Shown here: piece by piece, positions 38,306-38,442 of the stretch | How the letters are laid out: each line of letters starts with the position of its first letter | Numbering within the stretch: position 1 is the first letter of the stretch | DNA from: Escherichia coli | GTDB taxonomy: Bacteria > Pseudomonadota > Gammaproteobacteria > Enterobacterales > Enterobacteriaceae | NCBI RefSeq assembly: GCF_045037415.1 | Contig: NZ_CP173438.1 | Direction: 5' to 3' (one strand) | DNA: 64,000 nucleotides | Notes under the pieces: generated by a model | What the model was told of the DNA's origin: nothing | Databases searched by the model: none | The model's input: only the letters and a program-made list of their open reading frames with translations | Position numbers and translations under genes: made by a program

Positions 38306-38329
38306 TCAGTATCTCCATACAATCTATTA

Positions 38330-38343
38330 ATCATTTAAATGAT
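38330..38343. promoter_or_regulatory. Perfect 14-bp palindrome ATCATTTAAATGAT in the pgrR-ycjY divergent intergenic region; candidate LysR-type binding site
   Basis: Read directly; flanked downstream by two 9-bp direct repeats gtctaatca (38346-38354, 38365-38373). Confidence 0.4.
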
Positions 38344-38442
38344 AGGTCTAATCATGATTTTGGGTCTAATCAACTTAATGATCAATATCTATAGTGATAT
38401 CACCAACCGTTAAAACGAACCGACAACTCCATGAGGAACGGA

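What the first reader, a model, noticed from the sequence alone, without database searches (positions are those of the whole stretch)
38306..38442. pgrR-ycjY divergent intergenic region carries a perfect 14-bp palindrome and 9-bp direct repeats
ATCATTTAAATGAT (38330-38343) is a perfect palindrome of the T-N11-A kind favoured by LysR-type regulators, and is followed by two copies of gtctaatca spaced 19 bp apart. It is the obvious candidate for the PgrR autoregulatory and ycjY operator site. Notably the 32-nt mppA/mpaA element is absent from this region.
Basis: seen in the sequence. Interest (0 to 1): 0.35.

Follow-up and report, generated by a model that had tools for sequence, protein, structure and literature searches.

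The report
PgrR operator in pgrR–ycjY spacer
The palindrome between the E. coli genes pgrR and ycjY is almost certainly the main docking site of the regulator PgrR on its own promoter, an ordinary LysR-type arrangement at a spacer already published as a PgrR target.

Summary
The window is E. coli. pgrR (37406-38305, minus strand) and ycjY (38443-39363, plus strand) diverge from a 137-bp, 34% G+C spacer.

What is confirmed:
- The palindrome ATCATTTAAATGAT sits exactly at 38330-38343.
- The repeat is real but is 10 bp (GGTCTAATCA), with starts 18 bp apart, not 19.
- The symmetric T/A pair is T-N10-A (ATC-N8-GAT), not T-N11-A.

A 14-bp palindrome alone is not unusual: 5 in the window, 5.0 expected. 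The evidence lies elsewhere.
- The spacer holds two exact ATCA-N6-TGAT dyads (P about 1e-4).
- It also holds three TAATCA words, with 21 and 18 bp between successive starts.
- Positions 38326-38344 are 99% conserved across genera whose fourfold-degenerate sites are saturated.
- Orthologous LysR/hydrolase pairs on Agrobacterium, Rhizobium and Kozakia plasmids keep the ATCA and TGAT arms. Their central six bases differ, and the spacing to TCTAATC and to a -10-like hexamer is unchanged.

Published work already shows PgrR binding this spacer (genomic SELEX, DAP-seq) and repressing its own promoter.

The site looks like a standard LysR-type recognition site overlapping the predicted pgrR -10 hexamer and start region, with weaker downstream subsites over the predicted ycjY promoter. 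This is a known regulator-target pair, so interest is low.

The parts
37406..38305 (-). pgrR (ycjZ), a LysR-type regulator of 299 aa
   Evidence: ORF; RefSeq annotation; Pfam HTH_1 at 1.6e-21 and LysR_substrate at 1.5e-35.
38326..38344 (.). Invariant block ATTAATCATTTAAATGATA, which contains the palindrome
   Evidence: 99% column identity over 10 sequences from at least 6 genera, against 45% in the adjacent pgrR 5' leader. No variation in 6 sampled Escherichia sequences.
38330..38343 (.). S1, the dyad ATCA-N6-TGAT (perfect 14-bp palindrome): proposed high-affinity PgrR recognition site
   Evidence: The arms are kept and N6 varies in Agrobacterium, Rhizobium and Kozakia plasmid orthologues.
38339..38344 (-). 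Predicted pgrR -10 hexamer TATCAT, lying in the right arm of S1
   Evidence: Consensus scan. The same prediction, TAGACC-18-TATCAT, appears in PMC3946193. Prediction only; no start site has been mapped.
38345..38354 (+). Direct repeat copy 1, GGTCTAATCA
   Evidence: Weakly conserved: AGTCCAATCA in other Enterobacterales.
38351..38364 (.). S2, ATCATGATTTTGGG: degenerate subsite (6 of 8 arm bases), centre 21 bp from the S1 centre
   Evidence: 92% column identity. Its role is inferred.
38363..38372 (+). Direct repeat copy 2, GGTCTAATCA. It contains TCTAATC and, on the minus strand, the predicted pgrR -35 hexamer TAGACC.
   Evidence: TCTAATC is kept at the same offset (+35 from the S1 start) in the alpha-proteobacterial orthologues.
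38369..38382 (.). S3, ATCAACTTAATGAT: second exact ATCA-N6-TGAT dyad, centre 39 bp from the S1 centre
   Evidence: The left arm is conserved; the right arm varies among genera.
38389..38395 (+). CTATAGT: proposed ycjY -10 hexamer (TATAGT, 38390-38395)
   Evidence: Invariant in 11 sequences. A -10-like hexamer (TAGATT or TACCAT) lies at the same offset of +60 from S1 in three alpha-proteobacterial orthologues and at +59 in L010. No mapped start site was found.
38443..39363 (+). ycjY, an alpha/beta hydrolase of 306 aa and first gene of the divergent operon. A GAGGA Shine-Dalgarno sequence lies at 38433-38437.
   Evidence: RefSeq start; Pfam Peptidase_S15, DLH and Hydrolase_4.

Best explanation
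The palindrome (S1, 38330-38343) is the high-affinity recognition site of the LysR-type regulator PgrR. One DNA-binding dimer of the PgrR tetramer reads the two arms ATCA and TGAT, which are separated by six non-specific bases.

S1 covers the predicted -10 hexamer (TATCAT) and the start region of the pgrR promoter on the minus strand. Bound PgrR would therefore shut off its own transcription.

The second dimer of the tetramer reaches weaker subsites that begin with the same TAATCA word. These are S2 (38351-38364) and S3 (38369-38382), whose centres lie 21 and 39 bp from the S1 centre. They lie over the -35 and spacer region of the ycjY promoter, whose proposed -10 is TATAGT at 38390-38395. Occupation of S1 plus S3 would repress ycjY. 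An unidentified effector may shift the distal dimer, as in other LysR-type regulators.

Shown: sequence features, conservation, and published fragment-level binding and autorepression. Inferred: the bases contacted, the promoter positions, and the roles of S2 and S3.
For: - pgrR encodes a LysR-type regulator and is divergent from ycjY across a 137-bp spacer.
- Published binding: the genomic SELEX target list includes ycjY/ycjZ. DAP-seq enrichment at the pgrR promoter is 5632-fold. The pgrR promoter rises when PgrR is knocked down or titrated down.
- Positions 38326-38344 are 99% identical across Escherichia, Citrobacter, Kluyvera, Pseudocitrobacter, Shimwellia and Serratia, while the fourfold-degenerate sites of pgrR are only 32-43% identical to E. 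coli. There are no indels from S1 through 38420.
- Orthologues at 60-73% identity on Agrobacterium, Rhizobium and Kozakia plasmids carry ATCA-(CCTCAG/TCTCAA/CTCCAG)-TGAT-AGG. TCTAATC is at +35 in three of the four, and a -10-like hexamer is at +60 in those same three.
- Relatives at 50-53% identity with a different recognition helix (TSQSSLSHTVRR) carry a different sequence at that place.
- Two exact dyads in one spacer occur in about 1e-4 of shuffles, and three TAATCA words in about 9e-4.
- With TATAGT as the -10, the centres of S1, S2 and S3 fall near -65, -44 and -26. This matches the general RBS/ABS/ABS' layout of LysR-type regulators (layout described in PMC11739112; positions from my own knowledge of BenM and CatM).
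Against: - No nucleotide-level footprint or mutagenesis was available. The primary paper (Shimada 2013, Genes Cells) is not held.
- No transcription start site in the spacer was found in the data sets I could read, so every promoter position is a prediction.
- The right arm of S1 coincides with the predicted pgrR -10, so part of its conservation could reflect promoter function alone.
- The dyad is ATC-N8-GAT, one base shorter than the classical ATC-N9-GAT (T-N11-A).
- The right arm of S3 and repeat copy 1 are poorly conserved outside E. coli.
- PgrR knock-down did not significantly change the ycjY promoter reporter (file 9).
- TCTAATC also persists in relatives whose S1 differs, so it may be a promoter element rather than a PgrR subsite.
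Confidence: 0.8

Rival explanations
1. The conserved block is only promoter DNA. Its conservation reflects the pgrR -10 hexamer (TATCAT) and start region, and the repeats are -35 and -10 hexamers of two face-to-face sigma-70 promoters. PgrR binds elsewhere in the spacer.
For: The consensus scan and a published prediction place TAGACC-18-TATCAT (pgrR) and ATGATA-19-TCTAAT (ycjY) on exactly these bases. RpoD, RpoH and RpoE holoenzymes all bind this spacer in SELEX.
Against: The left arm ATCA has no hexamer role in the pgrR promoter, yet it is invariant and stays complementary to the right arm in distant orthologues while the centre changes. The published ycjY spacer is 20 nt by my count in both this window and K-12, which is too long for sigma-70. 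A -10 alone does not explain a 19-bp invariant block or a second exact dyad.
Confidence: 0.08
2. The palindrome is a site for a different DNA-binding protein that prefers AT-rich DNA, such as H-NS, Fis, IHF or Fur. PgrR binding in vitro maps elsewhere.
For: The spacer is 34% G+C. H-NS knock-down raises the ycjY promoter, with one binding data set (ChIP) on record for that promoter (file 8). AATGAT and ATCATT words resemble parts of the Fur box (my own knowledge; not tested).
Against: The alpha-proteobacterial orthologues keep the arms but have a G+C-rich centre (CCTCAG, CTCCAG). This is not what an AT-tract binder would conserve. The site tracks the LysR gene and its recognition helix across hosts and plasmids.
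Confidence: 0.04
3. The two GGTCTAATCA copies are sigma-E -10 elements (consensus TCTAA) that drive envelope-stress transcription of ycjY. They are not PgrR subsites.
For: RpoE holoenzyme gives a strong SELEX peak (17.2) on this spacer, and the authors call pgrR and ycjY RpoE-dependent (PMC5493296). Both copies contain GTCTAA. TCTAATC is conserved even where S1 differs.
Against: Nothing resembling the sigma-E -35 (GGAACTT) lies 16 nt upstream of either copy: ATAGGTC and CTATTAA match at 1-2 of 7 positions (read; consensus from my own knowledge). Copy 1 is not conserved. The invariant CTATAGT 20 bp downstream is then left unexplained.
Confidence: 0.1
4. Chance: an AT-rich spacer happens to contain a palindrome and a short repeat that have no function.
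For: The number of palindromes of at least 14 bp in the window equals the shuffle expectation, 5 against 5.0.
Against: The block is invariant across saturated divergence, and its arms are conserved across classes of Proteobacteria. Two exact dyads occur in about 1e-4 of shuffles.
Confidence: 0.01

Closest known systems
PgrR (YcjZ) regulation of pgrR and ycjY-ymjDC-mpaA in E. coli K-12 (Shimada, Yamazaki and Ishihama 2013, as cited in PMC5934670 and PMC10505187)
   Same: Same locus; the spacer differs from K-12 at one base, 38320. PgrR binding to this spacer, repression of the ycjY operon and negative autoregulation are all published.
   Different: I could not read the primary paper, so I do not know whether it names these bases.
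BenM/CatM-type LysR operators: site 1 ATAC-N7-GTAT plus sites 2 and 3 about 21 bp apart (the sliding-dimer model)
   Same: A strong dyad lies upstream at about -65, with two weaker sites at about 21 and 39-42 bp over the target -35 and spacer. The regulator gene is divergent and autorepressed through the strong site (layout in PMC11739112; details from my own knowledge).
   Different: The arms and spacing differ: ATCA-N6-TGAT is T-N10-A, not T-N11-A. PgrR is reported only as a repressor, and no effector is known. Promoter positions here are predicted, not mapped.
NodD-type nod box and Goethals LysR motif, ATC-N9-GAT
   Same: The same ATC and GAT arm triplets in inverted orientation.
   Different: The arms are one base closer here (ATC-N8-GAT).

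Membership tests
LysR-type regulator operator (RBS plus ABS at a divergent promoter) | The adjacent regulator has an N-terminal LysR HTH and a LysR substrate-binding domain | tested here: met
   Pfam HTH_1 at 1.6e-21 and LysR_substrate at 1.5e-35.
LysR-type regulator operator (RBS plus ABS at a divergent promoter) | Regulator and target genes are transcribed divergently from a short shared spacer | tested here: met
   pgrR is on the minus strand and ycjY on the plus strand, with a 137-bp spacer. The arrangement is kept in all orthologous loci.
LysR-type regulator operator (RBS plus ABS at a divergent promoter) | Dyad-symmetric site with the T-N11-A core | tested here: not met
   The symmetric pair is T-N10-A (ATC-N8-GAT). 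The only T-N11-A is off-axis. Length variants of the LysR box are known (my own knowledge), so this weakens the label, not the mechanism.
LysR-type regulator operator (RBS plus ABS at a divergent promoter) | Strong site near -65 and weaker site(s) near -35 of the target promoter | tested here: inconclusive
   The centres fall at about -65, -44 and -26 if TATAGT (38390-38395) is the ycjY -10. That hexamer is invariant, but no start site in the spacer was found.
LysR-type regulator operator (RBS plus ABS at a divergent promoter) | Half-sites conserved among orthologues and changing with the recognition helix | tested here: met
   The ATCA and TGAT arms are kept with a variable centre in orthologues at 60-88% identity. 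Relatives with helix TSQSSLSHTVRR have a different sequence there.
LysR-type regulator operator (RBS plus ABS at a divergent promoter) | Direct binding of the regulator to these bases | not testable with these tools
   Only fragment-level evidence is available: genomic SELEX and a 5632-fold DAP-seq enrichment.
LysR-type regulator operator (RBS plus ABS at a divergent promoter) | Negative autoregulation of the regulator gene | not testable with these tools
   Published: PPTP-seq log2 fold-change of 0.97 and confirmation with a tunable-TF strain (PMC10505187).
Sigma-E promoter (considered for the direct repeats) | A GGAACTT-like -35 element about 16 nt upstream of a TCTAA-like -10 | tested here: not met
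   TCTAA is present in both copies, but the upstream heptamers ATAGGTC and CTATTAA match at 1-2 of 7 positions (read).

The most novel reading that the evidence does not exclude
The pgrR-ycjY pair is an old, self-contained and mobile module: a LysR regulator plus an alpha/beta hydrolase whose operator geometry is fixed. S1, TCTAATC at +35 and a -10-like hexamer at +60 recur from E. coli chromosomes to Agrobacterium, Rhizobium and Kozakia plasmids. The layout has one strong dyad and two weaker subsites, as in sliding-dimer LysR regulators. PgrR would then be an effector-responsive switch whose primary conserved target is the hydrolase YcjY. On this reading the link to mpaA and peptidoglycan recycling is a secondary, E. 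coli-specific addition.
Probability: 0.3. Interest if true: 0.4.

Novelty: already known. Interest (0 to 1): 0.17.

Why it matters
It gives a base-level, testable assignment for a regulator whose binding to this spacer is known only at fragment level in the sources I could read. It defines arm mutations that should abolish PgrR binding, a proposed ycjY -10, and a three-subsite layout. That layout hints at an undiscovered effector for PgrR. The wide conservation of the module, including on plasmids, suggests that the substrate of YcjY may be the key to what PgrR senses. None of this changes the general picture of LysR-type regulation.

Tried and rejected
- Primary PgrR paper (PubMed 23301696): not held. 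A full-text search for the palindrome sequence found only an unrelated paper.
- A paper with many 'PGRR' hits turned out to describe a database of that name. The DAP-seq source paper is not in the library.
- Start-site data. Thomason 2015 is not held. The Cappable-seq table is cut off early. Kim 2012 lists no start in the spacer, only starts inside pgrR and at mpaA. Conway 2014 has no supplements held. SMRT-Cappable-seq supplements have no entry (a first attempt was not sent).
- S1-like words near other reported PgrR targets in the window: none at 6 of 8 or better in the ycjG-tpx or ycjX-ycjW spacers, and only chance-level matches near mppA and mpaA.
- More distant relatives. P0124 (49%) has no hydrolase neighbour. 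P0126/L023 (50%) has the hydrolase but no recognisable dyad.
- Hairpin or terminator reading of the palindrome: rejected on inspection, because the stem is A/T-rich (2 G-C pairs of 7) with no loop and no T-run.
- Sigma-E -35 upstream of the repeats: not found.

Full report
**Locus.** The window is Escherichia coli. The region 37300-39500 matches 5242 of 5426 complete E. coli genomes. RefSeq annotation places pgrR at 37406-38305 on the minus strand and ycjY at 38443-39363 on the plus strand. mppA lies upstream of pgrR, and an intact SDR gene and mpaA lie downstream of ycjY. PgrR has the LysR HTH and substrate-binding domains, and YcjY is an alpha/beta hydrolase. The 137-bp spacer is 34% G+C, against 49% for the window. 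It differs from K-12 MG1655 at one base, 38320.

**Observation.** ATCATTTAAATGAT is a perfect palindrome at exactly 38330-38343. The direct repeat exists but is 10 bp, GGTCTAATCA, at 38345-38354 and 38363-38372. Its starts are 18 bp apart, not 19. The dyad is not of the T-N11-A kind in the symmetric sense: the symmetric pair is T-N10-A, that is ATC-N8-GAT. The mppA/mpaA element is indeed absent from the spacer and occurs only at 37127 and 40238.

**Chance.** The palindrome alone is not exceptional. The window has 5 perfect palindromes of at least 14 bp against 5.0 expected in dinucleotide shuffles. Of shuffled spacers, 1.5% contain a palindrome of at least 14 bp and 1.6% contain a direct repeat of at least 10 bp.

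- A second exact ATCA-N6-TGAT lies at 38369-38382. The window has 7 such dyads against 1.5 expected, and two or more occur in one spacer in about 1e-4 of shuffles.
- TAATCA occurs three times on one strand, at 38328, 38349 and 38367, so successive starts are 21 and 18 bp apart. This happens in about 9e-4 of shuffles and is the only such cluster in the window.

The spacer therefore reads as three subsites that all begin with TAATCA:
- S1, ATCATTTAAATGAT (38330-38343)
- S2, ATCATGATTTTGGG (38351-64)
- S3, ATCAACTTAATGAT (38369-82)

**Conservation among close orthologues.** A scan of one genome per species found pgrR orthologues at 84-88% amino-acid identity in Citrobacter, Kluyvera, Pseudocitrobacter, Shimwellia and Serratia. 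All have a divergent ycjY. The fourfold-degenerate sites of pgrR are only 32-43% identical to E. coli, which means they are saturated. At least five of these lineages are mutually saturated as well.

Column identity to E. coli along the spacer:

| Segment | Identity |
|---|---|
| pgrR leader, 38306-38325 | 45% |
| Block containing S1, 38326-38344 | 99% |
| S2 | 92% |
| S3 | 87% |
| CTATAGT, 38389-38395 | 100% |
| 38396-38430 | 62% |

There are no indels from S1 through 38420. Repeat copy 1 is AGTCCAATCA in the other genera. The 10-bp palindrome AATCATGATT and the right arm of S3 are also not conserved. Six sampled Escherichia sequences, including O157:H7 and a cryptic clade, vary at 38308, 38320, 38361, 38368, 38400 and 38422, but never in 38326-38344.

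**Conservation among distant orthologues.** The same pair of LysR gene and alpha/beta hydrolase gene lies on plasmids of Klebsiella (80% nucleotide identity). It also lies on plasmids of Agrobacterium fabrum, A. pusense, Rhizobium tropici and Kozakia baliensis, at 60-73% amino-acid identity to PgrR.

Anchored on S1, these plasmids read ATCA-CCTCAG-TGAT-A(A/G)G, ATCA-TCTCAA-TGAT-AGG and ATCA-CTCCAG-TGAT-AGG. The arms are kept and the central six bases are free.
- In three of the four, TCTAATC lies at +35 from the S1 start, exactly as in E. coli.
- Those same three have a -10-like hexamer at +60 (TAGATT or TACCAT; TATAGT in E. coli).
- Two metagenomic orthologues at 65% and 58% identity carry ATCATCTCACTTAT and ATCACCAGAATAAT at the same place.
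- The recognition helix MAQSALSQIVRR is identical in E. coli, the enterobacterial group and two of the alpha-proteobacterial plasmids.
- Relatives at 50-53% identity have the helix TSQSSLSHTVRR and other neighbouring genes. They carry TCATGAATCC-N5-ATAGG instead.

This pattern is what a transcription-factor dyad shows: conserved arms, a free centre, and a change that accompanies a change in the helix.

**Literature.**
- PgrR (YcjZ) was named after genomic SELEX. Its target list includes the ycjY/ycjZ spacer, and its RegulonDB regulon is ycjG, ycjXF-tyrR and ycjY-ymjDC-mpaA (PMC5934670; PMC4797297).
- PPTP-seq found negative autoregulation of pgrR, confirmed it with a tunable-TF strain, and noted agreement with the binding site reported in 2013 (PMC10505187).
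- Its Supplementary Data 6 lists a DAP-seq enrichment of 5632-fold for PgrR at the pgrR promoter, above LacI at lacZYA (4413). The ycjY reporter did not change significantly on PgrR knock-down.
- RNA polymerase SELEX placed predicted promoters on these very bases. For pgrR the prediction is TAGACC-18-TATCAT, which is copy 2 of the repeat plus the right arm of S1. For ycjY it is ATGATA-19-TCTAAT; I count a 20-nt spacer there (PMC3946193).
- RpoE holoenzyme also binds the spacer strongly (PMC5493296).
- The primary 2013 paper is not held, so I cannot say whether it names the bases.

**Mechanism.** The best reading is a standard LysR-type layout (general model in PMC11739112).
- S1 is the high-affinity recognition site. 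It overlaps the predicted pgrR -10 and start region, which explains autorepression.
- If TATAGT at 38390-38395 is the ycjY -10, as its invariance and fixed offset suggest, the centres of S1, S2 and S3 lie near -65, -44 and -26. A tetramer bound to S1 plus S3 would cover the ycjY -35 and spacer region and repress it.
- A shift of the distal dimer to S2 on effector binding is possible but wholly inferred.

Shown: the sequence features, their conservation, and published fragment-level binding and autorepression. Inferred: the contacted bases, both promoters, and the roles of S2 and S3. No start site in the spacer was found in the data I could reach.

**Rivals.**
- Promoter-only conservation fails to explain the invariant left arm and the preserved dyad with a changing centre.
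- An AT-tract binder such as H-NS fails against the G+C-rich centres in the alpha-proteobacterial orthologues.
- A sigma-E reading of the repeats (TCTAA) has a published hint behind it, but no -35 element is present. It remains a minor possibility for copy 2.
- Chance is excluded by the conservation.

**Novelty.** The regulator, the target spacer, the binding and the autoregulation are all published. This is a known regulator-target pair of a textbook kind. New here are the base-level assignment, the three-subsite reading, the proposed ycjY -10, and the finding that the module and its operator geometry recur on plasmids in another class of Proteobacteria. Interest is low, at 0.17.

Noticed in passing
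window 37127-37163 and 40238-40274: A 37-nt direct repeat (86% identical; the 30-nt core is exact apart from two free positions). It has only these two copies in the window. The mpaA copy coincides with roughly -45 to -9 of the mpaA start site mapped by Kim 2012 (PMC3415461 supplement). The mppA copy is inverted relative to mppA and points into the 3' end of pgrR. Each copy contains a chance-level ATCA-N6-TGAT-like word (7 of 8 and 6 of 8 arm bases).
   Followed up: partly
window 34234-34251 (ynaJ-ynaI divergent spacer): CAATCAACGCATTGATTA: an exact ATCA-N6-TGAT dyad with 6-bp arms (AATCAA/TTGATT), the best match to the PgrR-type dyad outside the pgrR-ycjY spacer. ynaJ and ynaI are not among the published PgrR targets.
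   Followed up: no
window 39434-40072: An intact 212-aa NAD(P)H-binding SDR gene lies between ycjY and mpaA. K-12 MG1655 has only the fragments ymjD and ymjC there, so the operon in this strain is ycjY-SDR-mpaA.
   Followed up: partly
L024, L025, L026, L032 and hits H16-H20 (plasmids): The cassette of LysR gene and alpha/beta hydrolase gene is plasmid-borne in Klebsiella (80% nucleotide identity; some plasmids conjugative). It is also plasmid-borne in Agrobacterium, Rhizobium and Kozakia, where a second hydrolase gene follows and no mpaA was seen in the short stretch fetched. In these the dyad lies 2 nt from the annotated LysR start codon, which would leave only a very short (about 5-nt) leader.
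   Followed up: partly
L036 (E. coli ET358), corresponding to window 38353 onwards: A natural deletion begins just after S1. It removes S2, S3, the ycjY promoter and the 5' end of ycjY. Separately, O157:H7 F8492 carries T38361A, and AR_0085 carries A38368C inside repeat copy 2.
   Followed up: partly
L020, L027, L029, L030: LysR relatives at 50-53% identity have the recognition helix TSQSSLSHTVRR and other neighbours where these were seen: an aldo/keto reductase in L027 and a dienelactone-hydrolase-family gene downstream in L020 (L029 and L030 are unannotated). They share TCATGAATCC-N5-ATAGG next to the start codon. Two of them (L027 and L030) still have TCTAATC at +36. TCTAATC may therefore be a promoter element common to this LysR subfamily rather than a PgrR-specific subsite. 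L028 (Tistrella; zinc alcohol dehydrogenase neighbour; helix TSQSALSHTIRR) lacks the motif and has TCTAATC further away.
   Followed up: partly
window 38306-38442: Published RNA polymerase SELEX reports RpoD, RpoH (4.4) and especially RpoE (17.2) holoenzyme binding to this spacer. I found no sigma-E -35 element in the sequence.
   Followed up: partly
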